A stretch of 64,000 nt of DNA from positions 97,979 to 161,978 of the forward strand of contig CAYTWT010000257.1 in NCBI GenBank assembly GCA_964442185.1, written 5' to 3'. Under the pieces are notes generated by a model. It did no database searches, had not been told where the DNA came from, and was given only the letters and a program-made list of their open reading frames with translations. The stretch comes from an uncultured Acidobacteriota bacterium. GTDB taxonomy: Bacteria; Acidobacteriota; Vicinamibacteria; Fen-336. Positions 936 to 40,548 of this stretch are shown one piece after another. The first letter of the stretch is position 1, and each line of letters opens with the position of its first letter. Made by a program: the position numbers and the translations under genes.

Positions 936-1667
936 TCAGTTGTTTTTTCGCGCGAGCGCGAAGAGGCTCGCACCGATCGGCAAGGACACGCCGCGACCGA
1001 TCAGCCAGGCCTCCAGCTCGAGCAGTGAGCGAAAGCCCCACTCCAGGGGCGCTGGCAGGAAGCCCAGATCCGAGCCGTGGCGGCCCAGTACGCGGTCGAG
1101 CGTGCGCCGCGCGAGGAGCAACGGAAACAAGAAGGTGTTGGCGTAGCTGGAGCGGAGCACCGTGAGGCCGGCGTGCGTGAGCAGCGCTTCGAGCTCACGC
1201 CGGGCGTAGCGATGACGGGAATGCACGGCCTCATCGTGGGCGCCCCAGAGCAGCTTGAGCGCCGGCACGCGAACCAGCAGCAGGCCATCCGGCCGGAGCA
1301 CGCGCGCCATCTCTCGCATGGCGCGGAGATCGTCGGTCACCCAGCTGTGATAGAGAACGTCGAAGGACGTGACGGCATCGACCGCGGCGCTCCTCACGGG
1401 CAACTCAAGAACGTTGCCTCGCACGGAGACCACACCGCGACTGCGGCAAAACCCGATCGCCTCCTCGGAGATGTCGACGCCGAAGGCCGAGCCGAGCCGG
1501 CCCAGGAGCTCGAGGTTCACGCCCGTACCGCAGCCGGCGTCAAGGAACGCGAGTTTGCCGCCCCGAAGCTCCGGAGCGAGAAACGCCAAGCTGATCGCGC
1601 GCATCCCCACGTACCACCAGTGGCGTTGCTCGGCCTCGTACATCCGGGCGTACTCGGCGCTGTTCAT
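936..1667 (-). CDS. Class I SAM-dependent methyltransferase
   Basis: FLDAGCGTG motif and a Rossmann MTase fold. I read an ATG at 1667-1665 overlapping the TGA of the upstream gene (ATGA). The ORF-track start at 1700 is an over-extension. Confidence 0.75.
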   Translation of the reverse strand: MNSAEYARMYEAEQRHWWYVGMRAISLAFLAPELRGGKLAFLDAGCGTGVNLELLGRLGSAFGVDISEEAIGFCRSRGVVSVRGNVLELPVRSAAVDAVTSFDVLYHSWVTDDLRAMREMARVLRPDGLLLVRVPALKLLWGAHDEAVHSRHRYARRELEALLTHAGLTVLRSSYANTFLFPLLLARRTLDRVLGRHGSDLGFLPAPLEWGFRSLLELEAWLIGRGVSLPIGASLFALARKNN

Positions 1668-3409
1668 CGCGAGCGCTCGAAGACGATGCGCTCGAGCCAC
1701 GCGGCCCCCGGCGCATCCGCCTCGAAACTCACTTCGTTCAGCTCGCGATGCCAGCGTTCTTGTGGAACCGTGATCCGCCGCTCGCCAAGGCGTTCGCCGA
1801 GCCGCACCGCTCCGACGCGGGTTCCGTTGACTGCGAGCCGGAGCGTGCCGTCCCCTCGAACGCGCAGCACCAGCGTCAGGCTCTCGGGCACGTCAAGGGG
1901 CGCAAACAAGCGCGCGTTACCGAGAACGGCGCGGCAGAGCGAGTCCTCGCAAGGCCGCGCCGAACTCCAGCCCTCGCCGAAGAGGCTTGGATCCGCGCGT
2001 GGGTCACCCGCGGCGATCACGCCGCCGAGGTTGTTCTGCCGGTAGAAGAGGTATTTGCCGACTGCCAGGTCGAAGCCGGCCACCGGGGCTTTGTGTTCGG
2101 CGGCGAAAACCCAGTTGGCGGGCCAGGCGAGCGGCGTGCCGACACTCTCGCTCAGGATGGCGGCGCCGTTCTCCGTGATCCGCGCGAAGCTCACGGTCTC
2201 GTCCTGCGGCAGCCGGCTGGCGCGGTACTGCGCCATCAGGAGCGTGTTCCACAGCACCAATAGCGCACCCGTGGCGGCGAGCACAGCGGCCGGCCGGCGC
2301 GCGGCGGCGCGCTCGAGGCCGGCTACCGCATGGGCGAGGCCCAGGGCGAGGATCGGCAGCAATGAATCGAAGCGGCGATTCGAGAAGGAACCGCCCGCCC
2401 ACCAGTCACCCGAACAGACGTTCACGTACCCCATGACCAGCACGGGCGCGAGCAGCGTGAAGCCCGTACGCGCGTCACGGCTCAAGAAGGCGAGGTAGCC
2501 GAGGAGCGCGCCCCACAGCACCGGCGTCCAGTAGAGCAGCCCGTGACGCGATGAAAACAGCGTCTGCAGCAGGTACGGATGGTCGAGCCGCAGGAAGTCG
2601 CGCCCGTGCGGCGGATCCGCGAGCAGATACTGGCCGAAGATCGCTTTCCACGCGAGCAACTGCGGGAAGGCGCCCAGCGCGAACGCGAGCAGCGTGAGGC
2701 TCAGGGCGCCCAGCATCCTGGCGCTCGAGCGTCGGCGCGCGGACAGCAGCGATAGGGCTGGAAGCAGGAGGAATACGGCGTTCTGCCAACGCACCGTGGC
2801 GGCCAGGCCGATCAGCCCGCCCAGCGCCACAGCACGGAGCAGGCTCATCTCTCGCCGCGCGGGCCACCAGAGCGCGAGGATCGCGGCGGCCAGAAAGAAG
2901 CTGCCCGGGTGGCTCATGACCGGCTCGCACACCGCATACCAGCAGAGGAAGGTCGCATAGAACGCGACCAGAATCGTGACGTCCGCGGCCGCAGGCGCGA
3001 CGACGTCTGCCAGCACCCCGCGCAGCAGGAGCAGGCCTGCCACGATGTAGGCAAGGCTCCCGAGACAGACGGCACGGATGTGCCAGGGCGAATAGCCGTC
3101 TAGGACGTCGCCCTGGGCGCGGGCGGCGAGGTCTCCGGCGGCGTAGAACGGCATCCACAGCAGCGCCGGGCCGACCGAGAAGATCGTCCGGCGGTGGCCG
3201 GTGACCGTCTTCACCAGCTTGTCGCCGCGGGTCAGGATCCCGAAGTGCTCGAACTCGTTCGCGAAATCGAGGTCATGATCGAAATACAGCGAGCGCAGGT
3301 GCGAGTAGTACTCCACGGCGTCGGCCGTGAGGCGCGGGACGGGAAGTGAGAGCTGGACCAAGAACGCTGGAAAGGCGAGCGCCAGGGCGAGCAGGAGAGA
3401 GCGTTTCAC
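1664..3409 (-). CDS. Polytopic membrane protein, GT-C-like paralog 1, with a C-terminal soluble domain
   Basis: The N-terminal ~400 aa carry many hydrophobic spans. The first loop has EYYSHLRSLYFDHDLDFANEFEHFG, shared with the ORFs at 4728 and 11332. The start is a GTG at 3409 overlapping the upstream TGA (GTGA). Confidence 0.7.
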   Translation of the reverse strand: MKRSLLLALALAFPAFLVQLSLPVPRLTADAVEYYSHLRSLYFDHDLDFANEFEHFGILTRGDKLVKTVTGHRRTIFSVGPALLWMPFYAAGDLAARAQGDVLDGYSPWHIRAVCLGSLAYIVAGLLLLRGVLADVVAPAAADVTILVAFYATFLCWYAVCEPVMSHPGSFFLAAAILALWWPARREMSLLRAVALGGLIGLAATVRWQNAVFLLLPALSLLSARRRSSARMLGALSLTLLAFALGAFPQLLAWKAIFGQYLLADPPHGRDFLRLDHPYLLQTLFSSRHGLLYWTPVLWGALLGYLAFLSRDARTGFTLLAPVLVMGYVNVCSGDWWAGGSFSNRRFDSLLPILALGLAHAVAGLERAAARRPAAVLAATGALLVLWNTLLMAQYRASRLPQDETVSFARITENGAAILSESVGTPLAWPANWVFAAEHKAPVAGFDLAVGKYLFYRQNNLGGVIAAGDPRADPSLFGEGWSSARPCEDSLCRAVLGNARLFAPLDVPESLTLVLRVRGDGTLRLAVNGTRVGAVRLGERLGERRITVPQERWHRELNEVSFEADAPGAAWLERIVFERSR

Positions 3410-4737
3410 CGACTGGCGGACGCCGGGCCACTCGCGGCGGCCGCCAGTCGCGCCGCCTCCTTGCCCAGGCTGAAGGAGCCGCTGATGGTGCGGTCGTGGG
3501 GATGGAGCTGGCAGGAGTCGGTGAGAAACAGGTTCGGCACGGGCGTCGCGATCGTCGGCGTCGACGTACGGTAGTCCGTCCGGCAGATCGGCTGGGCGAA
3601 GCGATCTCGGAACACGGCTGAGAACTTGACCCAGCTGCGGTCGAAGCCGGGATGGATGACCGCGAGGGCATCGCAGTACTTGCGCAGCACTTCCTCGTCG
3701 TCCTGGTTGTAGCGGGGGTCGTCGGCCGAGAGGTACTGGGGCACGTAGAGGATCCGATCCCCGCCCAGCTCCGGCAGCGGGTTGAGGTTCGTGTACTCGA
3801 TCATCCCGGCGAAAGGCACGCGGCGATCGCTCGTGTTCACCCAGAAGTAGGGCGTGACGCTCTCGCGCAGTCGCAGGAACAGGCAGAAGATCCCGATCGT
3901 CGGGATCCTGCGAAGGCCGTCGAGGTAGGCCCCCTCCGGGAAATCCGGCGCGAGCTTCTCAAAACGCGACGTCGTGATCGTGGAGACGACCACGTCGGCG
4001 GGGAGCGTCTCGCCCCCGACCCGTACGCCGCTCACGCGTCCCGCCCCGAGCAGGATGCGCTCGACGTCGGCCTTCATCCGAATTCGGCCGCCGCGCTTTT
4101 CGAAGTCGAGGCCGAGGCCGTCGAGGACCCGTTGTGAGCCGCCTTCGATGTAGCCGAGCTCCTCGCGCCAGGGCGATTTCCGGGAGCGTGAGAGTCGGAC
4201 CATGCGCGCCCAGATCCAGGCGGCCGAGATCTCCTCGGCGTGCTCCGAGAACTTGAAGCGCAGCAGCGGCTCCCAGATCACCCGATAGGCCGGCTCGCCG
4301 AACATCGCCTTCAGCCATTCGACCGCCTGGCGCGACGCCAGATTCTCTTCTCGCTTCCACTGCGCCAGCTTCACGGCGATGCCCGCCCGCAGCCGGTCGT
4401 GAAAGGCGAGCGGCGCGAACTGGAGCAGCTCGAGCGGCGTCAAGAACGGGTACAGCGTCCCATTCACGAAATACGCCATCCGCGAGTCCTTCCAGTGGAG
4501 CCTGCTCGAAAGGCCTATCTCCGCGACCGTCTCGACCAGATCGTCGTCGCCGCGGCAGATGAAATGGTAGTAGCGTTCGAGGCTGACGCCTTGCACGTCG
4601 AAGGAACTGGCGAGACCGCCAAGAACCGGCGCCGACTCCAGCAGCGTCACGTCCAGGCCCGCCTTCACGAGGCTGTGCGCGGCCTTGATGCCCGCCGGCC
4701 CCCCGCCGATGACCACGGCCTTCCGCCTCAAGCCCAT
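3406..4737 (-). CDS. FAD/NAD(P)-binding oxidoreductase, amine-oxidase/PPO-like fold
   Basis: N-terminal VVIGGGPAGIKAA...LESAPVLGG dinucleotide-binding motif. 443 aa. Confidence 0.7.
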   Translation of the reverse strand: MGLRRKAVVIGGGPAGIKAAHSLVKAGLDVTLLESAPVLGGLASSFDVQGVSLERYYHFICRGDDDLVETVAEIGLSSRLHWKDSRMAYFVNGTLYPFLTPLELLQFAPLAFHDRLRAGIAVKLAQWKREENLASRQAVEWLKAMFGEPAYRVIWEPLLRFKFSEHAEEISAAWIWARMVRLSRSRKSPWREELGYIEGGSQRVLDGLGLDFEKRGGRIRMKADVERILLGAGRVSGVRVGGETLPADVVVSTITTSRFEKLAPDFPEGAYLDGLRRIPTIGIFCLFLRLRESVTPYFWVNTSDRRVPFAGMIEYTNLNPLPELGGDRILYVPQYLSADDPRYNQDDEEVLRKYCDALAVIHPGFDRSWVKFSAVFRDRFAQPICRTDYRTSTPTIATPVPNLFLTDSCQLHPHDRTISGSFSLGKEAARLAAAASGPASASR

Positions 4738-6716
4738 CGCCTCGGGTTGGGGCTTGTTCGGACGAAGCTCACGGCGTCGACACGGACGTCCGTGGCGTCC
4801 TGGGTCACGAAGGCGATCTCGTTGACCTCACGCCGCCAGAACGACGCCGGGACAGCCACGCGCTCTTCGCCCCAGCCGCTTCCAACCCACATTTCTCCAG
4901 CCGCGCGCCCGTTGACCAGCACGCGCAGCCGTCGCGGCTCCGGCGCGTTCACGCGCAGCTGCAGCTCGAGGTCTTCGGGCACGTCCAGACTCGCAAACAG
5001 GCGGGCGCGCTGCTTGATGCGCCGCGCCGCGACACCGCTGTAGTCCTCGATGCCGCCCCAGCCTTCCGCAAGCAGTGCCTCGTCTCCCGCGCTGCCGATC
5101 TCGACACGCCCGCCGAGATTGTTCTGCATGTAGAAGAGGTAGCGGCCAACGACCAGGTCGTACTGGCCCGGTCGGCCGTGGCGGGCCGCAAAGAACCAAC
5201 TCGCTGGCCAGGTGGTCGGAAAACCGACCCGGTCGCTCACGATCTGAGCTGCGTTCCGCGCGAGGGTTGGGAAGGCCACGGTGTCGTCGGCGGGGATCCA
5301 GTTGAGGCGCAGTTGCTCGGCGAGCGCCAGGTTCCAGGCGCAGAACGGCACGGCCATCGCAAGCGTCGCCAGGCGCGGGCGGCGCGCCAGGCAGCGGCGC
5401 AGCGCGTCGATCGAGGCCGCGAAGCCGAAGGCGAACACCGGCAGCAGACTGTCGAAGCGTCGGTTCGAGAAGGAAGCCCCACCCCAGTAGTCGGCAACAC
5501 TCATGTTGAGCCACGTCATCAAGACCAGTGGCGGAAGAAAGGCGAGCGCCATCGCCGCTCGACGCTGCGCGAGCGGGAGCATGCCGACAAAGCCCAGCCA
5601 GAAGACGGGCGTCCACGACAGCAGCCCGTGGCGGGATGAAAACAGCGTTTCGAGCACGAACGGATGATGCAGCCGCACGAAGCCGGGCCCCTCGGGCGGA
5701 TAGGGCACCCAGTGGTCGTAGATCGCCTTCCACGCGAGCAGCTGTGGGAACGCGCCGATCAGGGCGCCTGCGCCCAATGCCAGGGCATGCGGAATCAGGG
5801 CAAGCACGCCTCGCGGAGCGTAGCGGGAGCGCAGGGCGAGATCGAGCGCCGGCAGCAGCAGCAGGGTCCCGTTCTGCCAACGCACGCTCATGGCCAGGCC
5901 CAGGACCAGGCCGAGCGCCAGGAAGGCGAATGGCCCGCTGCGCCCGCGGCCCCGCTCCCACAGCGTGATGGCAAGCGCCGCGAAGAAGGCCGCCGCCGCA
6001 TGTGAATAGGTCGGTTGAAAAACCATGTACCAGTAGTGGAACGTCGCGAAGTAGACGAGCAGCACGGCGGCGAGCGCCGTGCCCGCGGGGAAATGCCGCA
6101 GCAGCAGGGCGTGGATCAGGACCACGGCGAAGAATCCGTACAGCAGGCTGCCGAGCGCCACGGCATTGCGGTGGTAGGGGCCGTAACCCGAGAGGTCGGG
6201 ATCGCCGCCGAGCGCGCGGTCCACGCGGCCGACCAGTTCTCCCACTCCGAAGAACGGGCCCCACACCAGCGCGGGCCCGACCGAATAGATGGTCCGGCGC
6301 AAGCCGGTCTTCGTGGGCATCTGCAGGTCACCCCGCGAAAGCAGGCCGAAGTGCTCGTATTCGTTGGTGAGATCGAAGTCGCCGTCCTTCCAGAGCGAAT
6401 GGACGAACAGGTAGTAGCTGAGCCCGTCGCCGTCGATCCTCCCGCCCGCGACCTGGAAGTGGACGAGGCTCGGCAACAGCAGCAGGCAGAGGGCCAAAAC
6501 GCCGCCGCTCAGGCGCTCGGCCCTGGGCTGCAGACTCCGGAAGCGAAGCACGAAGAGCACCCCGACGAGCGCAGCTCGCACCGCGAAGCCCAGCGCGCTC
6601 ACCGGCGACAGCCCGAAGGGCGCCAGAAGCGAAAGCTCTCCCGTGATCACGATCAGCGCGAGATCAGCCACAAGCAGAGCGAGCGCGGCGCCCGTGAGGC
6701 GACGCAGAATCATCAC
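4728..6716 (-). CDS. Polytopic membrane protein, GT-C-like paralog 2, with a C-terminal soluble domain
   Basis: DGLSYYLFVHSLWKDGDFDLTNEYEHFG loop motif. The C-terminal domain aligns with paralog 1 (YLFYxQNNLGG...RLFAxLDVPE). GTG/ATG start overlaps the upstream stop. Confidence 0.7.
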   Translation of the reverse strand: MMILRRLTGAALALLVADLALIVITGELSLLAPFGLSPVSALGFAVRAALVGVLFVLRFRSLQPRAERLSGGVLALCLLLLPSLVHFQVAGGRIDGDGLSYYLFVHSLWKDGDFDLTNEYEHFGLLSRGDLQMPTKTGLRRTIYSVGPALVWGPFFGVGELVGRVDRALGGDPDLSGYGPYHRNAVALGSLLYGFFAVVLIHALLLRHFPAGTALAAVLLVYFATFHYWYMVFQPTYSHAAAAFFAALAITLWERGRGRSGPFAFLALGLVLGLAMSVRWQNGTLLLLPALDLALRSRYAPRGVLALIPHALALGAGALIGAFPQLLAWKAIYDHWVPYPPEGPGFVRLHHPFVLETLFSSRHGLLSWTPVFWLGFVGMLPLAQRRAAMALAFLPPLVLMTWLNMSVADYWGGASFSNRRFDSLLPVFAFGFAASIDALRRCLARRPRLATLAMAVPFCAWNLALAEQLRLNWIPADDTVAFPTLARNAAQIVSDRVGFPTTWPASWFFAARHGRPGQYDLVVGRYLFYMQNNLGGRVEIGSAGDEALLAEGWGGIEDYSGVAARRIKQRARLFASLDVPEDLELQLRVNAPEPRRLRVLVNGRAAGEMWVGSGWGEERVAVPASFWRREVNEIAFVTQDATDVRVDAVSFVRTSPNPRRWA

Positions 6717-7909
6717 GCGAGCAGCTCTTCGTAGAGCGTGATGGTGCGGCGCGCGAGCGCCGACCAGGCGAACTGCGCCAGCGCGCGCTTTCGACCGGCC
6801 ACGCCGAGCCGCCGGCGCAGGGCGGCGCTCGGGATCAGCTCCGCGAGTGCTGTGGCCAGGCCTTCGATGTCCCCCGGGGCGACGAGCCGGCCCGTGGACT
6901 CGTCCACCTTGTCCGGGATGCCGCCGGCGCGTGTCGCCACGACCGGCAGCCCGTGAGCCATGGCTTCCAGCGTCACCAGGCTCGAACCTTCGTAGTGCGT
7001 CGCGTGGACGAAGATGTCGGCGCGTTCATAGAGAGCGTGCAGCAGACTCTCGCTCGTGCGTCCTGCAAGGAGCAGGTGCCGCGCGACGCCGTGGCGCCGC
7101 TGTTTCAAGAGCGAAGCGGCGTAGCGGCCGTCGCCGACCACGACCCAGGCCCAATTGGGCGGCAGGCTGCCGCGGGCCTCGAGCGCCTCGAGCGCCAGGA
7201 GCGTGTCGCCAAAGCCTTTGTAGGCCTCGATCCTTCCCACCGAGAGGAACACCGGATCGGCCGTCTTGAGCGAAGGCAGCGCCTGGCGGGCGATCCGCTT
7301 CCAGTCGGGCGGGGTCGCCTCGCGGATCTCAGCGGCGTCGATGCCGTTCTCGAGTACGACCACCTTGTCCTCGCTGACGCCGAGATAGCGGGGCACGTCC
7401 CCGCGCGTGGCTTCGTCGGTCGCGATCACCCGGTCCGAGAGGCGCGCCGCTTCGCGGGACAATGCGCGTAGCCGGGACAACGCGAGGCCCTTCACGCCCG
7501 TCGCCTTGTGCTCCTCCATGCCTTGCGGGTTCATCACGAGTGGGGCTCGCAGCCCGGCGTCTTTCGCCCTCAAGCGGCCGTAGCCGAGGGCCGCCACGCC
7601 TTGCGCATGCACGATGTCGATGGCCCCCGCCTTCACCCGCTCCGCCACGGCCGCGCCCAGGCGCACGGCGAAGCGGGGATAGTTGAGGGTGCGATCGAGC
7701 ACACGGCCATGAGCGCCGGCTGGCACGCCGCCATAGGGGACGAAGACGACCTCGCCCGGGAAGGCGCCCTGCCGCGTCGCCGGCCGCGTGAAGAGCGTCA
7801 CCTCGACGCCGGCCTTGCGCAGGTGCTTCGCGAGGTGATAGATGGCACGCTCGAGCCCGCCGGGCTCGTGGAGCGGGTGTGCCGCGCGCGTGAGCAGGGC
7901 AACCTTCAC
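6713..7909 (-). CDS. Glycosyltransferase family 4
   Basis: GT-B/GT4 signatures (KVALLTRAAHPLHEPGGLERAIYHLAK...; C-terminal E-x7-E region). The first 260 aa of the ORF-track protein are Arg/Gly-rich artefact. The true GTG at 7909-7907 overlaps TGA 7908-7906 (checked base by base). Confidence 0.75.
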   Translation of the reverse strand: MKVALLTRAAHPLHEPGGLERAIYHLAKHLRKAGVEVTLFTRPATRQGAFPGEVVFVPYGGVPAGAHGRVLDRTLNYPRFAVRLGAAVAERVKAGAIDIVHAQGVAALGYGRLRAKDAGLRAPLVMNPQGMEEHKATGVKGLALSRLRALSREAARLSDRVIATDEATRGDVPRYLGVSEDKVVVLENGIDAAEIREATPPDWKRIARQALPSLKTADPVFLSVGRIEAYKGFGDTLLALEALEARGSLPPNWAWVVVGDGRYAASLLKQRRHGVARHLLLAGRTSESLLHALYERADIFVHATHYEGSSLVTLEAMAHGLPVVATRAGGIPDKVDESTGRLVAPGDIEGLATALAELIPSAALRRRLGVAGRKRALAQFAWSALARRTITLYEELLA

Positions 7910-13880: not shown

Positions 13881-13890
13881 CGCGTCCTGT

Positions 13891-26053: not shown

Positions 26054-26083
26054 GTCTTTAAGATTCTATACGATAGGCCCAGA

Positions 26084-27841: not shown

Positions 27842-27859
27842 CGTTTCGATCCTAGCGTG

Positions 27860-30424: not shown

Positions 30425-30428
30425 GTTC

Positions 30429-32449: not shown

Positions 32450-32558
32450 TTGGCCTGCGAGGCCTCAGAGACTACTTCATCCCATCGGGCGACGAAAGCC
32501 ACCAGATGTTGTCGCCGGGCATCCATCCACCGCCAGATATTGTGGCTTAACTCCTTGC

Positions 32559-32595
32559 TTGATAATGACTTGCAGTCGCATGCTAAGATGATTTC
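32559..32595 (+). promoter_or_regulatory. Putative sigma70-like promoter for ku giving a leaderless transcript
   Basis: TTGATA (32559-64), a 19-nt spacer, TAAGAT (32584-89), then 6 nt to the ATG at 32596. This is the only AT-rich patch in the area. Confidence 0.35.
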
Positions 32596-33462: not shown

Positions 33463-33497
33463 CCCCCGGCCTGCCGGGCTGCGGCGCTACCGCCCGT

Positions 33498-34706
33498 TCA
33501 TTTCGTGAGCAGCCTGGCTGCGGCGACGTAAACGTCGTCTGCCGTCACCAGGCGCAGGCACTCGGGCGGCTCGGGTCCCGCGCACTCCTGCGGCGGCTTG
33601 CGGATCAGGTTGCAGGGTGAGCACCAGAGTTCCGCGCGCACGACGACGTGACGCGTGCCCGACGCACCGCTGCCGCCCGAGAAGTAACGCCCGGGATCGG
33701 AAGGGCCGAAGACGCTCACCGACGGTGTTCCCACGGCGCAGGCCATGTGCATCGGCCCCGTGTCCGACGAGAGGAAGAGATCCAGCCGCTCGATCATGGC
33801 CAGCGTCTCCCGCACGCCGAGCCGGCCCGTCAGATCGACGGGCTTCGTCGACAGCGCCTTTGCGAGGACCGCGGCGAGCGGCCGATCCGCTTCCGAGCCG
33901 GTGACGAGGAGCGTCGCGCCGAACTGCTTCTGAAGCCGGAGCGCCACTTCGGCCCAGCGCGCGACGTCCCATTGCTTCACCAGCCGGCCGCCGCTGGGAT
34001 GCAGGCCAATCAGCGGGCGTCTCTCGTCGAGGTGCAGGTTCCGCAGCAGCTCTTCCGCGAAGCGCCGGTCTTCGCGCGTCAGCGGATCGTGCGCGCTGGG
34101 CGTCGAGACGCCGATCGCCGTCGCCACGGCGCGGCGGTTCTGCTCGACCCACGAAATCGTCTCGTCCAGCGCGACGACGTGCGTGAGCAGGTAGCGGCCG
34201 CCGGTGTTGGCGTAGCCGACGCGCGCGCGCGCCCCGGCCAGGCTCATCAGGATCGAGGCGCGGATGTCGCCCTGCAGGTCGATCGCCAGATCGAGGGATG
34301 CATTACGCAGTGCGCGCGCCGCCGCGGCGAGGCTCGAGAAGCTCGTAGCACCTTCGCTCGGACGGCCCACCCAGGGCGCGCTCCAGACCAGGATCTCGTC
34401 CACGGACGCGCCCTTCGCGAGCCCCGCGCTCCAGGCGCCGACGGCGAGGCGGATGCGGGCGTGCGGCAGCGCCGCGCGGAGCTCAGCGAGAGCTGGCAAG
34501 GACATCACGACGTCGCCGATACGATCGAGGCGCAGCACCAGCACCTCGCGCAGCGTGGCGCGATCGAGCGGCTGTGACGCCTTTGGCCGCCAGCCGAGGA
34601 AGAGGCGCCCGGGGAGATCGAGCGCGCCGAGCAGCAGCCGCTCTGCCGGGTCGTAGACCCGGCTCGCGGTGCCGCTAACGGGCTGCCAGCGCCGCCGCTT
34701 GGACAT
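33498..34706 (-). CDS. Glycosyltransferase family 9 (heptosyltransferase-like)
   Basis: VLVLRLDRIGDVVMSLPAL...SSDTGPMHMACAVGTPSVSVFG...CSPC. Start placed at the ATG 34706-34704, overlapping the upstream gene by 32 bp. Confidence 0.75.
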   Translation of the reverse strand: MSKRRRWQPVSGTASRVYDPAERLLLGALDLPGRLFLGWRPKASQPLDRATLREVLVLRLDRIGDVVMSLPALAELRAALPHARIRLAVGAWSAGLAKGASVDEILVWSAPWVGRPSEGATSFSSLAAAARALRNASLDLAIDLQGDIRASILMSLAGARARVGYANTGGRYLLTHVVALDETISWVEQNRRAVATAIGVSTPSAHDPLTREDRRFAEELLRNLHLDERRPLIGLHPSGGRLVKQWDVARWAEVALRLQKQFGATLLVTGSEADRPLAAVLAKALSTKPVDLTGRLGVRETLAMIERLDLFLSSDTGPMHMACAVGTPSVSVFGPSDPGRYFSGGSGASGTRHVVVRAELWCSPCNLIRKPPQECAGPEPPECLRLVTADDVYVAAARLLTK

Positions 34707-35895
34707 AGCACGCTTCGAAGGCCTGTGCGGCCGCATCCCAGGACAGCCGGGTGAGCGCCGTCTGTCTCGCAGCACTCGCCAGGCGCTCGCGGGTCGCGCT
34801 CTCGCGCAGCAGGCGGCGCAAGGCTTCGGCCAGAGCGGCCGGATCCTTCTCCGGGACCAGCAGGCCGTTGCTGTCGTGCTCGATCACGTCGGGGATGCCG
34901 GCGACGCACGAAGCCACGATCGGCCGGCCCGCGGCAAGCGCCTCGAGCAGCGCGTTCGGCAAGCCGTCGACGTTGCCGGCATGGTCCACCACCGAGGGCA
35001 CCACCGCCACGTCGGCCGTGGCGAGCGCAGCGGCCATTGCCTCACGGGGCAGCGCGCCACAGAACGTGACCGGGGCGCCCGTGTCGCGGGCGAGCGTTTC
35101 GAGCTCAGTGCGCAAATCGCCCTCCCCCGCGATCACGACCCGCGCCCCGCCGAGCAGCGGCGCGGCCTCGATCAGGTAGCGAAAGCCCTTCTTCTCCACG
35201 AGCCGTCCGAAAGCCAGAATCAGAAGAGCCTCCTCCGCGACGCCCAGGCGCGCGCGGATCGCGGCGCCATGCTGGGCGTTCAGATCGGGCGCAAAGGCGG
35301 CGACGTCGACACCATAGGCCACGGTGCGGGTCCGCTCCGGAGGCGCGCCGAGGCGCACAGCGCGACGCCGCAGGTCCACGCTGCAGGCGGTGATGGCGCC
35401 CGCCACTCCGAAGGCGCGTTGCGCCAGGATCCGCGCGGGCCACAGTCGCTCCGCCACGAACACGTCGCTGCCGTGCAGGCTCACCACGAACGCCGTGCGG
35501 TGGCCCTGCACGATGTCGGTCACCAAGGCCGCGTTCGGAACGACCCAGTGGGCATGAACGACATCGTAGCGCTCGGCCAGCAGCCGCTCGCTGAGCTGCC
35601 GGCGGAGCGCGAGTGCGACGAAGGGTGCGAGCAGGTACATGCCCTTCCGCACCCGCACGTCGGCCTCGAGGCTCTGCGCGTAGCCCCAGCGGCTCCACGC
35701 CTCGGAGGGGGCGTATGCGTATGGGAAGAAGCGAACGCCCTCATCACCGCCGCGCTGCAGCTCAGGGTGATGCGGCAGGACCACGTCCACCTGGTGCCCG
35801 CGCTTGGCGATGGAAACGGCGATGGACTCGATGAACGGGGCGGTCACGTCGCCGGGGAACTTGGGGTACGACGAGGTGAGCATGAGCACGCGCAT
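34675..35895 (-). CDS. Glycosyltransferase family 4
   Basis: MRVLMLTSSYPKFPGDVTAPFIES...HAGNVDGLPNALLEALAAGRPIV. ATG 35895-35893 shares a base with the upstream TGA. The ORF-track N-terminal 104 aa are artefact. Confidence 0.75.
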   Translation of the reverse strand: MRVLMLTSSYPKFPGDVTAPFIESIAVSIAKRGHQVDVVLPHHPELQRGGDEGVRFFPYAYAPSEAWSRWGYAQSLEADVRVRKGMYLLAPFVALALRRQLSERLLAERYDVVHAHWVVPNAALVTDIVQGHRTAFVVSLHGSDVFVAERLWPARILAQRAFGVAGAITACSVDLRRRAVRLGAPPERTRTVAYGVDVAAFAPDLNAQHGAAIRARLGVAEEALLILAFGRLVEKKGFRYLIEAAPLLGGARVVIAGEGDLRTELETLARDTGAPVTFCGALPREAMAAALATADVAVVPSVVDHAGNVDGLPNALLEALAAGRPIVASCVAGIPDVIEHDSNGLLVPEKDPAALAEALRRLLRESATRERLASAARQTALTRLSWDAAAQAFEACYVQAAALAAR

Positions 35896-38444
35896 CAGTG
35901 GTTCGCCGTGAGGCGCAGGCGATCCAGCATCACGCCCAGATCGCGCGTGTCCGTAGCCCCGGGCAGGACGTTGGCTGGCCGCCAAGCGTTCACGTCGAAG
36001 CGCAGCACCGGTGGACCAGGGGGGAGCGTCTCGGGCAGCCGCAAGGAGTATTCGTCGAACCCGGTCGTCGGCGTGAAGGCGCCGAGCTCGGCGCCCGAGA
36101 GTGAAGCTCGCACCACTGCAGGCTTGAGGTCCGGGCGTGCTCCTGCAGCGGCTGTGACCACGAGTGTGTCGCCACCCCTTGCGCCGGGCAGGTAGACCGA
36201 GGCGCACGCCCCGGTCCAGCGAAACGTAAGGTCCCCGCCTCCCTCCTTGTCGAACAACCCCGAGACCTGGAAGTCATCGGAGCCGCCGAGGTCGACCTCG
36301 CGCAACGGCGGCACCTGGAGCTCTTCGGGCGGCACAACGCGCGAGACCGTGAAGTGCAGGGCGCGGAACTCGGGCCGCTCCGGCGGCCGGCCGTAGGCAC
36401 GCTCCCACTCGTAGGTTCCGAAGGAGTAATTCTCGACGCGCTCCAGGAACAAGCCGCACAGGTCAGTGCGGTAAGTGTGGACAAAATACAGGTTGCGATA
36501 AACGGGGCGCCAACTCGTCACGAGATGCCGCAATTTCTCGGGATCCGGGTTGAAGCGTGCGAGCTCGAGCACGCTCACTCCGTGGACGGCCCACAAGGGC
36601 AGCGACAGCAGGTGAATGCTCTGGACCTGCTCGAAGATCACGATGTCGTCGGGCCCGAAGCGTCGCGCTACGTCGTCGACGAAGCGCACGGCGTTCTTCC
36701 AATCCGTGAAGCCCGCGATGCGGGCCGTGTCTCGAGCGAAGGCAAGCAGCAGTGCCAGCGCGAGCGCGCCGGCGGCCACGCGCCGTAGCCCGCCCCGGCC
36801 CGCGAGGCGCACCAGGAAGAAGGCCGCGAGGCCGAGCAGGCACGGCAGGATCACCGGCACGAAGCGGCGCAAGGCGAAGTAGTAGTCGTTGTAGATGCGG
36901 ATCTTGTAGAAGTAGAAGCTCGAGAAGGAGAGTGCCGCGAGCAAGAAGAACAGATAGCGTCCGCGAAACTGCCGAATCGCGAGCAGCAGGCCGAGGATCC
37001 CGAGGCCAAGCCCGAGCGGCGTCACGAACCAACCCAGCCTCACAAGCGACTGGGCGTCGTGGGCGGCGAGCCGCGAGAAGCCCAGCCTGCCGAGCACTCC
37101 GGCATCCTGCCAGGCGAGAGCGGGATCATTGCCGTCGGCGCCGGCCCAGGCGGAGAACAACGGCCGGACGAAGTAGGCGTAGGCCGCGACGAAAACGACC
37201 AGAGCCATCGCGCCCGAGCGCAGCCTCTCGGTGCGGCCCTCGAGCCAGAGCACCAGGCGCGGGCCATAGCGACTCGCGGCCAGCATGAAGCCGAGCGCCA
37301 GAACGCCGCAGGCGATCCACACCGCCGGCGGCTGCCGCCAGTACGGACGCGACGCGATGTTGTCGATGTACTTCCGCGCGAACAGGGCGGCGTGCAGAGC
37401 GGCGTGGGCCAACAGGGCCGCCAGCGGAACGAGCGCGGCCGCGGCTCTTCGCCAGGGCAGATCGCCATGGGCGCGCCGGATCAGCACGTAGAGCGCGAGC
37501 GGCGCCAGCAGCAGCACGCTGTCGATGCGGACCAGCAGCGACAGGCCGAGTGCCAACCCGAAGAGGGCGCCGAAGAATGGCGACGCGCGCTCCTCCCAGT
37601 GCGCCAGCCCCAGCAGAGCGACGAAGACGAGGAACTGCGAGACGGGCTCGGACACCGGATAACGCGCGAACCAGACCTGCATGACGTTGCTGGCGAGCAG
37701 CAGCGCGCCCAGCAGCGCCGTGGCATCGCCGAACAGGCGCCGCATCGCCAGGAAGAAGCCGAGCGTGCCGAGGATCCCGAAGACCGGAGGCGTCGCGAGC
37801 GCGCCCTTCACGCCCATGGCCTGGAACAAGAAAGCCCCGAAGGCGGGAAACAGGTGGAAGAACTCGGGGAAGACGCGGCCCGACTCCGGACGCTCCAGGG
37901 GGAAGCCCATGAAGCGGCCCCAGTTGAAGTCGGGGCTCCCGGGGTTGCGATAGAACAGCTCGACGTCCTGCTTCGGGATCGAGAGCACGGCAGGGTCGGT
38001 GTAGGCAATCCCGCCCGTGCGCGCGATCAAGCCCATGGCGCCGATGTAGGTGCCCGGATCGCGTCCACCTAGCAGGTACTCGCCGGGTCGCGCCTGCATG
38101 CCAAAGGCGAGCAACAGCACGATCAGGGCGGGAGCGGCATCCGTAGCCGAACCAAGGCGCGGGAACGGCGCCGCGAGCCGGCGCCTCCCGAAAACCAGCG
38201 CCGCGAGGCTCGCCGCGCCGAGAATCGCGGCCGCGCTGACGAGCGAGAAGCGCCCCATCTCCGCGAGCACCAGCCCGACCCACGACGCGGCCATGACGCT
38301 GACCGCGACCGACAGGAACAGCGCCTCGTCGAGGCGCAGCGCATCCCTCTCGCGTTTGCCCAGCAGCGCCAGGAAGACGAGGCCGGGAACGACGAATAGA
38401 AAGAGCCCGGCCACCGTCGCCGTGGCGGGGTCGACCAGATTCAC
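35895..38444 (-). CDS. 849-aa polytopic membrane protein, GT-C-like, with a C-terminal extracytoplasmic domain
   Basis: At least 13 predicted TM helices over ~600 aa, then a ~230-aa soluble C-terminus. No recognisable catalytic family beyond this architecture. Confidence 0.55.
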   Translation of the reverse strand: MNLVDPATATVAGLFLFVVPGLVFLALLGKRERDALRLDEALFLSVAVSVMAASWVGLVLAEMGRFSLVSAAAILGAASLAALVFGRRRLAAPFPRLGSATDAAPALIVLLLAFGMQARPGEYLLGGRDPGTYIGAMGLIARTGGIAYTDPAVLSIPKQDVELFYRNPGSPDFNWGRFMGFPLERPESGRVFPEFFHLFPAFGAFLFQAMGVKGALATPPVFGILGTLGFFLAMRRLFGDATALLGALLLASNVMQVWFARYPVSEPVSQFLVFVALLGLAHWEERASPFFGALFGLALGLSLLVRIDSVLLLAPLALYVLIRRAHGDLPWRRAAAALVPLAALLAHAALHAALFARKYIDNIASRPYWRQPPAVWIACGVLALGFMLAASRYGPRLVLWLEGRTERLRSGAMALVVFVAAYAYFVRPLFSAWAGADGNDPALAWQDAGVLGRLGFSRLAAHDAQSLVRLGWFVTPLGLGLGILGLLLAIRQFRGRYLFFLLAALSFSSFYFYKIRIYNDYYFALRRFVPVILPCLLGLAAFFLVRLAGRGGLRRVAAGALALALLLAFARDTARIAGFTDWKNAVRFVDDVARRFGPDDIVIFEQVQSIHLLSLPLWAVHGVSVLELARFNPDPEKLRHLVTSWRPVYRNLYFVHTYRTDLCGLFLERVENYSFGTYEWERAYGRPPERPEFRALHFTVSRVVPPEELQVPPLREVDLGGSDDFQVSGLFDKEGGGDLTFRWTGACASVYLPGARGGDTLVVTAAAGARPDLKPAVVRASLSGAELGAFTPTTGFDEYSLRLPETLPPGPPVLRFDVNAWRPANVLPGATDTRDLGVMLDRLRLTANH

Positions 38445-39556
38445 GCCGGCAGGGAGCGCAAGGCCTCCCGCAGCGCCGCCACCACGGCGCCCACCTGCGC
38501 GTCAGTCATTTCCGGATAGATCGGCAGCGAGAAGATCTCCCGTGCCGCCTGCTCGGCCACGGGCAGATCGCCCGGCTTCCCGCCCAGGGATGCGAAGGCC
38601 GGTTGCAAGTGCAGCGGGATCGGGTAGTGGATCAGCGTGCCGACGCCACGCCCCTTCAAGGCGGCCATCAGCGAGTCGCGAAGTGCGTGGCGCACCACAT
38701 ACAGATGATAGACGGCGCGGGCGTACGGCTGTTCCTCGGGGAGCTGTAGCCCGATGCCCGCAAGGCCGTCCGCGTAAGCGGCGGCGATCTGCCGCCGCCT
38801 CCCGGTCCAGTTGGGCAGATGCCGGAGCTTCACGCGCAGGATCGCGGCCTGCATCTCGTCCAGGCGGCTGTTGATCCCGGAGAGCTCGTGCCGGTAGCGA
38901 TCGCTCTGCCCGCCGTTTCTGAGCTGGCGGAGTCGCGGCGCGAGCGAGAGGTCGTTCACCAGCACGGCGCCGCCGTCTCCGAAGGCGCCCAGGTTCTTGG
39001 TCGGATAGTACGAATGCGTTCCGAGGGCGCCGAGCGTTCCGACCGTCTGACCCTTGTACTCCGCGCCGTGGGACTGGCAGGCGTCTTCGACGACAACGAG
39101 ACCACGCCGTTCGGCGCTCTCGAGGATCGGATCGAGGTCGACGGGGTGGCCGTAAAGGTGCACCGGGAGGATCGCCCTGGTGCGCTTCGTGATCGCCCGT
39201 TCGACCGCGCCGGGCGCGAGGTTCAGCGTCCTGGGATCGAGGTCGGCGAACACGGGCCGCGCCCCCGCCCGCTCGATGGCGAGGGCGGTAAACGCCGCTG
39301 AGAGCGGCGAAGTGACGACCTCGTCGCCGCGCCCCACGCCCGTGGCCTCGAGCGCCAACTGGATGGCCTCCGTTCCATTCGCCACCGCCACCACGTCGGG
39401 GCAGCCCATCTGGGCCGCAAGCTCTCGTTCGAAGGCTTCATTCTCGGGACCGAGGATGAACCAGCCGGATTCCAGGACGCGCGCGATCGCGGCATCGATC
39501 TCGGCCCGGATCGGTGCCAGCTGGGCGCGGAAATCGCCGAACGGAACAGCGCTCAC
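38441..39556 (-). CDS. DegT/DnrJ/EryC1/StrS-family PLP-dependent sugar aminotransferase
   Basis: VANGTEAIQLAL...DACQSHGAEYKG...HSYYPTKNLGAFGDGG. GTG at 39556-39554 overlaps TGA 39555-39553 (verified). The ORF-track N-terminal 300 aa are artefact. Confidence 0.8.
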   Translation of the reverse strand: MSAVPFGDFRAQLAPIRAEIDAAIARVLESGWFILGPENEAFERELAAQMGCPDVVAVANGTEAIQLALEATGVGRGDEVVTSPLSAAFTALAIERAGARPVFADLDPRTLNLAPGAVERAITKRTRAILPVHLYGHPVDLDPILESAERRGLVVVEDACQSHGAEYKGQTVGTLGALGTHSYYPTKNLGAFGDGGAVLVNDLSLAPRLRQLRNGGQSDRYRHELSGINSRLDEMQAAILRVKLRHLPNWTGRRRQIAAAYADGLAGIGLQLPEEQPYARAVYHLYVVRHALRDSLMAALKGRGVGTLIHYPIPLHLQPAFASLGGKPGDLPVAEQAAREIFSLPIYPEMTDAQVGAVVAALREALRSLPA

Positions 39557-40548
39557 AGGTAGTGCTGCTTGTGGGCGCGATAGTAGGCGATGGTCTTTTC
39601 CAGGCCTTCGCGCAGACCGATGCGGGGCTTCCAGCCCAGCGCCGCATGGATCCGCGAGGCGTCGGCGTAGAAGTCGCCGATGTCGATGCGCTTCCGCTCG
39701 GGCGGAAACGGCGCCAGGCGCAGCGAGCCCTGGCCCGCGATCTCGATCATCAGCTTCGCCAGATCGGCGAGCGAAACCGGCGCCTCGCCACCGAGGTTGA
39801 AGACCTGGCCGTCGGCGGCCTGCATCGCCCCCGCACGCAAGAACGCATCGACCACGTCGTCGATGTAGTCGAAATCGCGGCGCTGGCTGCCGTCGCCGAA
39901 CAACTGGATCTCCTCGCCCAAGCTCACCTGGCGCACGAACCAGCCGATGAAGCCCTGGCGATTGTGGCGGATCAACTGGCGCGGACCGTAGCTGTTGGTG
40001 AGCCGCAACGAGGTGGTGCGGATGCCGTACACCGAGTGGTACACGAGGTGATACATCTCGCCCGAGATCTTGTTGATGCCATTCACGTCGATGGGCTGGA
40101 GCGGATGGGTTTCGTCGACGGGCAGTCGTTGGGGCTTTCCGTAGACCTGGCGGGTTCCCGCGTAGACGATCTTGAGGCCCGGGTTGCCCTTGCGCACGGC
40201 CTCGAGGATCGACAACTGGCTCCGGCAGTTGATCTCCAGGTCGGTGAACGGGTCCGTCATCGAATCGATGTGGCTCACCTGGCCCGCCAGGTTGAAGAGC
40301 AGCTCCTGGCCGAGTACCAGGTACTCCATGCCGTGGCCCCGAACGTCGGCGACGTTGATGCGGAGCTTGTCCTCGTAGCCTGCGAGGTTGAAGAGATTCC
40401 CGCCGTAGTCGGGGAGCAGGCTGTCGACCGCGGTGACGTCGGCGCCCAGATCGGCGAGCGTCCGGCACAGGTTCGAACCGATGAACCCGAGGCCGCCCGT
40501 GACCAGGACCTTGCGACCCCGGTAGAAATCGCGATGCGCCTCGCTCAA
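39553..40548 (-). CDS. NAD-dependent sugar 4,6-dehydratase/epimerase (SDR)
   Basis: FYRGRKVLVTGGLGFIGSNL...SGEMYHLVYHSVYG. TTG at 40548-40546 overlaps TGA 40547-40545 (verified). Confidence 0.75.
   Translation of the reverse strand: MSEAHRDFYRGRKVLVTGGLGFIGSNLCRTLADLGADVTAVDSLLPDYGGNLFNLAGYEDKLRINVADVRGHGMEYLVLGQELLFNLAGQVSHIDSMTDPFTDLEINCRSQLSILEAVRKGNPGLKIVYAGTRQVYGKPQRLPVDETHPLQPIDVNGINKISGEMYHLVYHSVYGIRTTSLRLTNSYGPRQLIRHNRQGFIGWFVRQVSLGEEIQLFGDGSQRRDFDYIDDVVDAFLRAGAMQAADGQVFNLGGEAPVSLADLAKLMIEIAGQGSLRLAPFPPERKRIDIGDFYADASRIHAALGWKPRIGLREGLEKTIAYYRAHKQHYL

What the first reader, a model, noticed from the sequence alone, without database searches (positions are those of the whole stretch)
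1664..40548. Pervasive 4-nt GTGA/TTGA/ATGA start-stop overlaps; ORF-track N-termini are systematically over-extended
I checked the junctions base by base. The downstream start codon overlaps the upstream stop as GTGA at 3409, 7909, 9072, 12696, 23185, 24234, 25025 and 39556. It overlaps as TTGA at 11335 and 40548, as ATGA at 1667, 10208, 21482, 31400, 43949 and 52127, and as TGATG at 35895 and 6713. In every GTGA/TTGA case the ORF-track protein instead begins 30-300 aa earlier with Arg/Gly/Pro-rich sequence, which is the signature of reading a GC-rich gene in the wrong frame or antisense. Preference for GTG/TTG starts embedded in stop codons points to strong translational coupling and fixed stoichiometry across the glycan operons. 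It also means automated annotation of this region would mis-size many proteins, including creating an apparent 839-aa fusion at 21479..23998 and a 675-aa aminotransferase.
Basis: seen in the sequence. Interest (0 to 1): 0.55.

Follow-up and report, generated by a model that had tools for sequence, protein, structure and literature searches.

The report
Ordinary 4-nt stop–start gene overlaps
Tightly packed sugar-chain biosynthesis genes of a GC-rich soil acidobacterium (Vicinamibacteria) are joined by the familiar four-base stop/start overlaps. The long Arg-rich N-termini come only from a naive longest-ORF list, and public gene calls already use the short starts, so the feature is real but ordinary.

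Summary
The core observation holds. On the minus strand, 17 co-directional junctions between 936 and 47751 are NTGA overlaps and two are TGATG. One more ATGA lies on the plus strand at 52127. Three motifs were mislabelled: 10208 is TTGA, and 31400 and 43949 are GTGA. One GTGA at 38444 was missed. Only 6 of the 10 listed GTGA/TTGA cases have extensions of 30 aa or more.

The short starts are correct. This is supported by Pfam, NCBIfam and PDB alignments, by homologue lengths, by codon-position substitution patterns across 28 Vicinamibacteria loci, and by A/G/T toggling at orthologous junctions.

Nineteen of 21 short proteins already exist as exact sequences in public gene predictions, and 0 of 9 long forms do. 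Automated annotation therefore does not over-extend them. The only miscall on this exact sequence is a truncation, though one 442-aa member of the epimerase cluster is an over-long call on a relative.

There is no preference for GTG/TTG. GTGA dominance follows from GC3 composition (G 41%, A 3%), and in relatives ATGA is enriched far above that composition. "Fixed stoichiometry" is unsupported: the overlaps join unrelated enzymes, while yajC-secD-secF in the same window has none.

Translational coupling is plausible, since SD-like motifs are enriched, but it is untested. The phenomenon is already known and of low interest.

The parts
1664..1667 (-). ATGA overlap: stop of the 581-aa unknown protein (1664-3409) and ATG start of the 243-aa methyltransferase (936-1667)
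   Evidence: Searches show the motif. The exact 243-aa protein is in public predictions and in the L085 gene call. No SD-like motif.
3406..3409 (-). GTGA overlap: stop of the amine-oxidase-like gene and GTG start of the 581-aa protein. The ORF track is not extended here.
   Evidence: The exact 581-aa protein is on record and called in L085.
4728..4737 (-).
   Evidence: The Rossmann GGGPAG motif starts at residue 11 of the ATG-4737 form.
6713..6716 (-). GTGATG: either a TGATG 1-nt overlap (ATG 6713, 661 aa) or a GTGA 4-nt overlap (GTG 6716, 662 aa)
   Evidence: The 661-aa form is on record and the 662-aa form is not.
7906..7909 (-). GTGA overlap: GTG start of the 398-aa GT4 glycosyltransferase. 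The ORF track gives 660 aa.
   Evidence: The Pfam GT4 N-domain starts 16 aa after this start. The exact 398-aa protein is on record and the 660-aa form is not. Called in L085. SD duplex -5.8.
9069..9072 (-). GTGA overlap: GTG start of the 388-aa GT4 glycosyltransferase. The ORF track gives 405 aa.
   Evidence: SD duplex -7.0.
10205..10208 (-). It is the first start codon in the open frame.
   Evidence: The exact protein is on record. L081 and L085 both call it.
11332..11335 (-). TTGA overlap: TTG start of the 376-aa methyltransferase with a Cys-rich Trm112-like N-domain. The ORF track gives 498 aa.
   Evidence: Homologue N-termini (M/V-IS.ALL.R.ACP.CLEA) align exactly here. The 376-aa form is on record. 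SD duplex -11.4. JGI contig L081 truncates it to 320 aa.
12693..12696 (-). GTGA overlap: GTG start of the 454-aa protein with no Pfam match. The ORF track gives 470 aa.
   Evidence: SD duplex -5.9.
21479..21482 (-). ATGA overlap: ATG start of the 325-aa NAD-dependent sugar dehydratase/epimerase
   Evidence: The Pfam domain starts at residue 1-4. NTGA is kept in 19 of 22 relatives (13 ATGA, 6 GTGA). On record.
23182..23185 (-). GTGA overlap: GTG start of the 568-aa PseF-like + PseG-like fusion protein. The ORF track gives an '839-aa fusion'.
   Evidence: All 120 best homologues are 552-587 aa. Substitutions in 23200-23998 peak at position 3 of the upstream gene's frame. The 568-aa form is on record and the 839-aa form is not. 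NCBIfam places PseF at residues 8-220 and PseG at 225-485.
24231..24234 (-). GTGA overlap: GTG start of the 350-aa NeuB-family nonulosonate synthase. The ORF track gives 634 aa.
   Evidence: PDB NeuB residue 5 aligns to ORF residue 287, and the proposed start is residue 285. Twelve of 18 relatives keep NTGA, mostly as ATGA.
25022..25025 (-). GTGA overlap: GTG start of the 264-aa cytidylyltransferase. The ORF track gives 526 aa.
   Evidence: The Pfam domain starts 11 aa after this start. Eighteen of 21 relatives have an in-frame A/G/T-TGA here.
31397..31400 (-).
   Evidence: GTGA or TTGA in 2 of 2 relatives. On record.
34675..34706 (-). 32-nt overlap: TAG stop of the GT4 gene and ATG 34706 start of the GT9 gene.
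   Evidence: ATG at the same offset in 9 of 10 relatives..
35893..35897 (-). TGATG 1-nt overlap: ATG 35895 start of the 406-aa GT4 glycosyltransferase. The ORF track gives 510 aa.
   Evidence: Logan gene calls on L082-84. On record.
38441..38444 (-).
   Evidence: On record. Logan gene calls. Three of 6 relatives keep G/T-TGA. No SD-like motif.
39553..39556 (-). GTGA overlap: GTG start of the 371-aa DegT/PseC-type aminotransferase. The ORF track gives 675 aa.
   Evidence: PDB WbpE/QdtB residues 2-3 align to ORF residue 308, and the proposed start is residue 305. The 371-aa form is on record and the 675-aa form is not. No SD-like motif.
40545..40548 (-). TTGA overlap: TTG start of the 331-aa SDR epimerase/dehydratase. 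The ORF track gives 354 aa.
   Evidence: It is the only start codon between GTG 40617 and the Rossmann fold. The 331-aa form is on record together with 7 other 331-aa cluster members.
43946..43949 (-). It is the first start codon in the open frame.
44787..44794 (-). 8-nt overlap (GTGGCTGA): GTG start of the 282-aa GT2 glycosyltransferase
   Evidence: The Pfam GT2 domain starts at residue 8, which excludes the next start codon downstream.
52127..52130 (+). ATGA overlap between functionally unrelated genes: an Nth-like DNA glycosylase and a HEAT-repeat/PPIase protein

Best explanation
The window comes from a 69%-GC Acidobacteriota genome of the class Vicinamibacteria. Its left 47 kb holds several minus-strand operons, mainly for glycan and nonulosonic-acid biosynthesis. 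They include GT4, GT2 and GT9 glycosyltransferases, methyltransferases, two NeuB-type synthases, a PseF/PseG-like fusion, a PseC-like aminotransferase, a flippase, and PMT/YfhO-like membrane proteins.

Neighbouring genes in these operons are joined by the canonical short overlaps: (A/G/T)TGA of 4 nt, or TGATG of 1 nt. The downstream gene really does start at the overlap.

The longer 'ORF-track' proteins arise because off-frame stop codons are rare in a GC-rich genome. The downstream reading frame therefore stays open for up to about 300 codons across the upstream gene. That read-through yields Arg/Gly/Pro/Ala-rich pseudo-sequence that is not translated.

GTG is the commonest overlapping start in this window because the N of NTGA is the third codon position of the upstream gene's last codon, and third positions here are 41% G against 3% A.

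Inferred, not shown: ribosomes that terminate at TGA reinitiate at the overlapping start (termination-reinitiation). In about two thirds of cases an SD-like motif inside the upstream gene would help this. The result would be translational coupling along chains of up to 10 genes.
For: - Motifs are present at every stated coordinate.
- The codon-usage changepoint falls within a few codons of the overlap at nearly every junction.
- Pfam, NCBIfam and PDB homologies begin 2-38 aa after the proposed starts.
- Homologue lengths match: 552-587 aa for the '839-aa' ORF, and about 376 aa for the '498-aa' ORF with N-termini aligned at TTG 11335.
- Across 28 Vicinamibacteria loci, substitutions inside three long extensions peak at position 3 of the upstream gene's frame (0.37-0.40). 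That is position 1 of the long-ORF frame.
- By my count of the rows, about 73% of relatives keep an in-frame NTGA at the orthologous junction. N toggles between A, G and T, and when it is C the start lies elsewhere.
- The frame-class excess has p = 2e-4.
- SD-like duplexes of -5 kcal/mol or stronger occur at 11 of 17 overlap starts in the window, against 26.5% of internal start-like codons (p = 0.012). In relatives the figures are 72% against 35% (p = 5e-17).
- Nineteen of 21 short proteins are on record as exact sequences, and 0 of 9 long forms are. Independent gene calls agree.
- Composition explains GTGA dominance.
- Literature: the 4-nt overlap is the commonest, and termination-reinitiation has been shown experimentally in H. 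volcanii and E. coli (PMC6728339). Short phase-2 overlaps rise with GC content, r2 = 0.69 (PMC3887535).
Against: - No expression, ribosome-profiling or proteomic data exist for this organism, so start-site usage and coupling are inferred.
- Six of 17 overlap starts have no SD-like motif: 1667, 3409, 6716, 10208, 38444 and 39556.
- A few junctions stay ambiguous: 6716 against 6713, 4737/4731/4716, 23197 against 23185, and 26053 against 26038.
- The relatives are syntenic orthologues, so counts pooled across loci are not independent.
- No genome-wide baseline for this lineage was available.
Confidence: 0.88

Rival explanations
1. The overlaps are real starts, but they are neutral and evolutionarily labile by-products of start/stop codon turnover in a compact GC-rich genome. 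On this view they are not selected for translational coupling or stoichiometry.
For: - Orthologous junctions are gained and lost among relatives. 23185 is kept in only about 10 of 19 loci and 24234 in 12 of 18.
- A 2026 preprint finds that overlaps are labile and not enriched among protein-complex subunits compared with closely spaced pairs.
- Mutation-only simulations reproduce the 4-nt peak (PMC3887535).
- Overlaps join unrelated genes at 52127 and 31400.
- secDF-yajC has no overlaps.
Against: - SD-like motifs are strongly enriched upstream of overlap starts.
- ATG is enriched about 6-fold over composition at N of NTGA.
- C is over-represented before TGA where there is no overlap (41 of 59).
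- Coupling has been shown experimentally for such pairs in other species (PMC6728339).
Confidence: 0.3
2. One reading: weak GTG/TTG starts embedded in stop codons are specifically preferred, in order to enforce fixed stoichiometry across the glycan operons.
For: GTGA and TTGA make up 14 of 17 minus-strand overlaps in the window. In relatives, GTGA starts carry somewhat stronger SD-like motifs than ATGA starts (-7.3 against -5.5).
Against: - Composition alone predicts about 83% GTGA.
- Relatives show 45% ATGA against 7% expected.
- The same junction reads ATGA in most relatives, for example 24234.
- The products are enzymes rather than complex subunits.
- GTG is also common at non-overlapping starts.
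Confidence: 0.05
3. Some NTGA motifs are coincidental, since G precedes TGA in about 41% of cases by composition. On this view the true start lies further downstream at an internal ATG or GTG.
For: Six junctions lack an SD-like motif. One pipeline chose a downstream TTG at 11167. The public call at 4716 avoids an overlap.
Against: - Homologue N-termini align at the overlap wherever this was tested: 11335, 23185, 24234 and 39556.
- At 10208, 7909, 9072 and 25025 the next start codon downstream would cut into the Pfam domain.
- The frame-class excess has p = 2e-4.
Confidence: 0.06
4. The long N-terminal extensions, such as the 839-aa and 675-aa forms, are real alternative isoforms.
For: The frames are open and begin with GTG or TTG. 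Two of these starts have SD-like motifs: 23998 at -8.4 and 25086 at -7.1.
Against: - The extensions show no own-frame constraint.
- Their composition is R/G/P/A-rich.
- No homologue among the 120 best hits carries the extension.
- None of the long forms is present among about 15 billion proteins.
- They would need gene overlaps of 780-910 nt.
Confidence: 0.01

Closest known systems
Canonical unidirectional short gene overlaps, (A/G/T)TGA of 4 nt and TGATG of 1 nt, with translational coupling by termination-reinitiation (Huber et al. 2019, PMC6728339; Fonseca et al. 2013, PMC3887535)
   Same: The motifs, the frame relation and the obligatory TGA stop are the same. Operon context, frequent SD-like motifs inside the upstream gene, higher frequency in GC-rich genomes, and interchange of overlap motifs among orthologues also match.
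   Different: The local density is high: about 60% of co-directional junctions in the left block, and 47% in syntenic relatives, against about 15% of pairs genome-wide in most groups. That comparison sets long biosynthetic operons against whole genomes. Coupling itself was not tested here.
Longest-ORF over-extension and shadow ORFs in high-GC genomes, the problem that gene finders such as Prodigal were built to handle (PMC2848648)
   Same: Rare off-frame stops produce long spurious 5' extensions and antisense shadow ORFs. Examples here are 26066-26740 (-), 25223-26806 (+), and the extended tgt and HAD ORFs.
   Different: Nothing differs. Public gene calls for this very sequence already resolve these cases.
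Pseudaminic-, legionaminic- or sialic-acid-type nonulosonic acid biosynthesis clusters (PseB/C/F/G/H/I, NeuB)
   Same: The window has NeuB/PseI-like synthases, PseF-like and PseG-like domains, a PseC-like aminotransferase and SDR dehydratases, all beside glycosyltransferases and a flippase.
   Different: All hits fall below the NCBIfam equivalog cut-offs. PseF-like and PseG-like are fused into one 568-aa protein. There are two NeuB paralogues. No PseH-type acetyltransferase was identified. The sugar that is made is unknown.

Membership tests
Canonical 4-nt/1-nt unidirectional stop-start overlaps | Two adjacent co-directional genes that are both genuinely protein-coding | tested here: met
   Pfam, NCBIfam or PDB hits support most partners. 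Position-3 substitution excess in relatives supports coding. Exact proteins are on record. A few partners, such as 1664-3409, 4728-6713 and 11332-12696, have no Pfam hit but have coding statistics and conserved homologues.
Canonical 4-nt/1-nt unidirectional stop-start overlaps | The downstream start codon (ATG, GTG or TTG) shares bases with the upstream TGA stop, as NTGA or TGATG | tested here: met
   Base-level check at 20 junctions.
Canonical 4-nt/1-nt unidirectional stop-start overlaps | The overlapping codon is the real initiation site, so that homologue N-termini coincide with it | tested here: met
   Direct N-terminus alignments at 11335, 23185, 24234 and 39556. Domain-offset evidence supports the others. 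A/G/T toggling occurs in orthologues. No experimental start-site data exist.
Canonical 4-nt/1-nt unidirectional stop-start overlaps | Downstream translation depends on upstream termination (termination-reinitiation coupling) | not testable with these tools
   Only indirect evidence: SD-like motif enrichment and experiments in other species (PMC6728339).
Longest-ORF over-extension artefact | The extension lies over the upstream gene in another frame and shows no purifying selection in its own frame | tested here: met
   In the long-ORF frame, substitution rates by codon position are 0.37-0.40, 0.13-0.23 and 0.10-0.17. The peak is therefore at position 3 of the upstream gene's frame. The 39556 extension had too little coverage to test.
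Longest-ORF over-extension artefact | Homologues and independent gene calls lack the extension | tested here: met
Pseudaminic-acid (Pse) biosynthesis cluster | The full PseB, PseC, PseH, PseG, PseI and PseF set scoring at equivalog level | tested here: inconclusive
   PseC-, PseF-, PseG- and PseI/NeuB-like hits all fall below the curated cut-offs. For example, PseI scores 288 against 340 and NeuB 355 against 400. No PseH was found.

The most novel reading that the evidence does not exclude
Vicinamibacteria glycan operons might maintain an unusually high density of -4 overlaps by selection: about 50-60% of co-directional junctions, in chains of up to 10 genes. On this reading, SD motifs inside the upstream gene are tuned to the start codon, with stronger SDs at GTGA than at ATGA, and C is favoured before TGA where reinitiation is unwanted. 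Together these would form a graded reinitiation cascade that sets expression ratios along the operon.
Probability: 0.12. Interest if true: 0.25.

Novelty: already known. Interest (0 to 1): 0.08.

Why it matters
It matters little beyond quality control. The result shows that the first-stage 'ORF track' (first start codon after a stop) badly over-extends genes in GC-rich sequence, and that any 'fusion' read from it should be distrusted. Standard gene callers already place these starts at the 4-nt overlaps.

The overlaps are a textbook feature of compact operons and are known to be commoner at high GC. The one practically useful point concerns TTG-initiated overlap starts, which can be missed by pipelines. 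A Trm112-like N-domain was cut off the 376-aa methyltransferase in one JGI call.

Tried and rejected
- The look-up of encoding contigs returned nothing for proteins that are held only in the NCBI record. Exact look-ups with the listing of cluster members and the Logan contigs replaced it.
- My codon-usage changepoint put the methyltransferase start near 11149. Homologue alignment showed this was wrong and that TTG 11335 is right.
- My crude gene caller missed the low-scoring Nth-like gene at 51453-52130, so 52127 was checked by NCBIfam instead.
- The minus ORF 26066-26740 was considered as a gene and rejected. The substitution phase and Pfam show a plus-strand DUF72 gene at 26084-26806.
- A metagenome scan for a lineage baseline was considered but not run. 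Syntenic loci would not give an independent genome-wide rate.
- The third homologue search was not spent on the ambiguous 4737/4731/4716 junction.
- The idea that GTG/TTG is preferred was tested against GC3 composition and rejected.

Full report
**Observation**

The window is 68.9% GC. Every coordinate in the finding carries a stop/start overlap. All but 52127 are on the minus strand, where they read as TCAC/TCAA/TCAT ending at the stated coordinate.

Several details are wrong.
- 10208 is TTGA, and 31400 and 43949 are GTGA. None of the three is ATGA.
- 6713 is GTGATG, so it allows either a 4-nt overlap (GTG 6716) or a 1-nt overlap (ATG 6713).

The statement that the ORF track begins 30-300 aa earlier in every GTGA/TTGA case holds for only 6 of the 10 listed. 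Those six are 7909, 11335, 23185, 24234, 25025 and 39556, with extensions of 122 to 304 aa. At 3409 there is no extension. At 9072, 12696 and 40548 it is 16-23 aa. The six long extensions are indeed R/G/P/A-rich: 58-68% against 29-41% in the gene bodies.

**Is it more than chance?**

G precedes a TGA by composition in about 41% of cases, so a GTGA on its own means little. The telling evidence is the frame relation and the position of the coding signal.

- Nineteen of 28 co-directional minus-strand junctions have the frame class that a -4/-1 overlap requires, against 1/3 expected (p = 2e-4).
- A codon-usage changepoint model trained on the window places the onset of coding within a few codons of the overlap at almost every junction.
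- By my tally of the junction table, 17 of 28 junctions in the left block are -4 overlaps, against 1 of about 8 in the right-hand 16 kb (Fisher p = 0.04).

**What the genes are**

Pfam and NCBIfam show glycan and nonulosonic-acid biosynthesis operons. They hold several GT4, GT2 and GT9 glycosyltransferases, methyltransferases, two NeuB-family synthases and a 264-aa cytidylyltransferase. They also hold a 568-aa PseF-like + PseG-like fusion, a PseC/DegT aminotransferase, SDR dehydratases, a flippase, and PMT_2/YfhO-like membrane proteins.

The region is not continuous. It is interrupted by a GDSL hydrolase, LigD, two oxidoreductases, Ku (plus strand) and a plus-strand DUF72 gene.

The closest relatives are Vicinamibacteria (Acidobacteriota) MAGs. 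NeuB identity is 73-90%, with extensive synteny.

**Are the short starts right?**

1. Domain and structure alignments begin just after the proposed starts.
   - GT4 N-domains start 15-16 aa in. CTP_transf_3 starts 9-11 aa in. NeuB starts 38 aa in (Pfam), and at residue 18 against the full-length NCBIfam model.
   - PDB WbpE/QdtB residue 2-3 aligns to residue 308 of the 675-aa ORF, where the proposed start is residue 305.
   - N. meningitidis NeuB residue 5 aligns to residue 287 of the 634-aa ORF, where the proposed start is residue 285.
   - For the epimerase, TTG 40548 is the only start codon between GTG 40617 and the Rossmann fold.
2. Homologue lengths agree. All 120 best hits to the '839-aa' ORF are 552-587 aa (mode 568) and cover 66-68% of it. 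Hits to the '498-aa' ORF are about 370-400 aa, and their N-termini align exactly at TTG 11335. This reveals a conserved Cys-rich Trm112-like N-domain.
3. In alignments to 28 Vicinamibacteria loci, substitutions inside three long extensions peak at codon position 1 of the long-ORF frame (0.37-0.40). That position is position 3 of the upstream gene's frame, so the extensions are not under selection in their own frame.
4. Orthologous junctions keep an in-frame NTGA in about 73% of relatives, by my count of the rows: 19 of 22 at 21482, 18 of 21 at 25025, 12 of 18 at 24234 and about 10 of 19 at 23185. N toggles between A, G and T. Where it is C, or the stop is TAG/TAA, the start has moved.

**Does automated annotation over-extend these genes?**

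It does not.
- Exact-sequence look-ups found 19 of 21 short models in the public collection, mostly on an NCBI 164,067-nt contig.
- The look-ups found none of the nine long forms, including the 839-aa and 675-aa proteins.
- Gene calls on Logan contig L085, which is 99.97% identical to window 1-13409, reproduce every proposed start from 1667 to 12696. They use ATG 6713 for the TGATG junction.
- Contigs L082-84 reproduce 38444 and 35895.
- Prodigal caps same-strand overlap at 60 bp and treats 1- and 4-bp overlaps specially (PMC2848648).

The only miscall on this exact sequence goes the other way. JGI contig L081 starts the methyltransferase at TTG 11167, giving 320 aa, which truncates the conserved N-domain. 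One 442-aa outlier in the 331-aa epimerase cluster, on a relative's contig, shows that over-extension does occur occasionally.

**Is GTG/TTG preferred?**

It is not. Third-position composition in these genes is C 50%, G 41%, T 4.9% and A 3.4%. Composition alone would give about 83% GTGA, 10% TTGA and 7% ATGA.

On the minus strand the window has 11 GTGA, 3 TTGA and 3 ATGA, which is not different from that expectation. The plus-strand overlap at 52127 is a further ATGA.

Across relatives the 97 -4 overlaps are 44 ATGA, 41 GTGA and 12 TTGA, so ATG is strongly enriched over composition (p = 1e-25). The window's GTGA at 24234 is ATGA in most relatives.

**Coupling and stoichiometry**

SD-like complementarity of -5 kcal/mol or stronger to a generic anti-SD occurs upstream of 11 of 17 overlap starts. 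The rate is 26.5% for 825 internal start-like codons (p = 0.012). In relatives the figures are 72% against 35% (p = 5e-17, not phylogenetically independent). Six junctions have no such motif.

This matches the published picture. Overlap starts are usually preceded by an SD inside the upstream gene, and such pairs are coupled by termination-reinitiation (PMC6728339). Coupling is therefore plausible here but remains an inference.

'Fixed stoichiometry' is not supported.
- The coupled products are enzymes, not complex subunits.
- ATGA at 52127 joins an Nth-like glycosylase to a HEAT/PPIase protein, and GTGA at 31400 joins two unrelated oxidoreductases.
- The heteromeric yajC-secD-secF operon in the same window has 1- and 9-nt gaps rather than overlaps.
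- A 2026 preprint finds that overlaps are labile and not enriched for complex subunits.

**Comparison with known work**

(A/G/T)TGA is the commonest unidirectional overlap, and about 15% of co-directional pairs overlap in most prokaryotic groups (PMC6728339). ATGA accounts for 24% and GTGA for 3.8% of unidirectional overlaps across 3,998 genomes. [quoted passage not shown] Spurious long ORFs in high-GC genomes are a stated design problem for gene finders (PMC2848648).

The local density here is high: about 60% in the left block and 47% in syntenic relatives. This compares long biosynthetic operons with genome averages, and no lineage-wide baseline could be obtained.

**Verdict**

It is an already known, ordinary property of compact operons in GC-rich bacteria, and public gene predictions already capture it.

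Noticed in passing
window 26819-33462: A block sits between two glycan clusters: GDSL hydrolase, LigD (27860-30424), Pyr_redox_3, Sacchrp_dh-like and Ku (32596-33462, plus strand). In 11 of the Vicinamibacteria loci about 2 kb of other DNA takes its place. It is wholly or partly present in L001, L003, L008, L009, L017 and L018. It looks like a variable NHEJ island.
   Followed up: partly
window 21479-23185 (-): A 568-aa fusion of a PseF-like cytidylyltransferase (residues 8-220) and a PseG-like hydrolase (residues 225-485). More than 120 homologues conserve it at 552-587 aa. Two NeuB paralogues (23182-24234 and 25022-26053) flank a second, 264-aa cytidylyltransferase. All score below the NCBIfam equivalog cut-offs, so the nonulosonic acid made is unknown.
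   Followed up: partly
window 10205-11335 (-); L081 1777-2739: This methyltransferase has a conserved Cys-rich Trm112-like zinc-ribbon N-domain of about 56 aa. A JGI gene call on a 99.8%-identical contig truncates the protein to 320 aa by starting at TTG 11167.
   Followed up: yes
window 34675-34706 (-): A 32-nt overlap between a GT4 gene (TAG stop) and a GT9 heptosyltransferase-like gene (ATG 34706). Nine of 10 relatives have it at the same offset, which is unusual conservation for a longer overlap.
   Followed up: partly
window 26038-26093 and 47751: -10-like boxes lie directly upstream of operon-leading ATGs: TATAGAAT ends about 10 nt before ATG 26053, and TATAAT ends about 9 nt before ATG 47751 (ychF). 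The divergent DUF72 gene starts only about 30 nt from ATG 26053. These may be leaderless or very short-leader mRNAs.
   Followed up: no
window 26066-26806; 56476-57930; 53176-54966: More ORF-track artefacts. The minus ORF 26066-26740 is a shadow of a plus-strand DUF72 gene (26084-26806), whose own listed ORF (25223-26806, 527 aa) is over-extended. In tgt the TGT domain starts at residue 121, and in a HAD hydrolase the domain starts at residue 327, so both are over-extended too.
   Followed up: yes
window 1664-3409, 4728-6713, 11332-12696, 16075-17880 (-): Four large proteins inside the glycan clusters (581, 661, 454 and 601 aa) have no Pfam match at E <= 1e-3. They may be polymerases, ligases or other membrane or secreted components.
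   Followed up: no
28 Vicinamibacteria loci (L001-L026, L029, L075): At co-directional junctions that end in TGA without an overlap, the preceding base is C in 41 of 59 cases, against 50% expected (p = 0.004). GTGA overlap starts have stronger SD-like motifs than ATGA starts (mean -7.3 against -5.5 kcal/mol). Neither figure is corrected for shared ancestry.
   Followed up: partly
window 4716-4737 (-): The start of the amine-oxidase-like gene is ambiguous. ATG 4737 gives a 10-nt overlap. TTG 4731 gives a TTGA overlap with GAGG 8 nt upstream. GTG 4716, the start used by public gene calls, would begin the protein right at the Rossmann beta-1 strand.
   Followed up: partly
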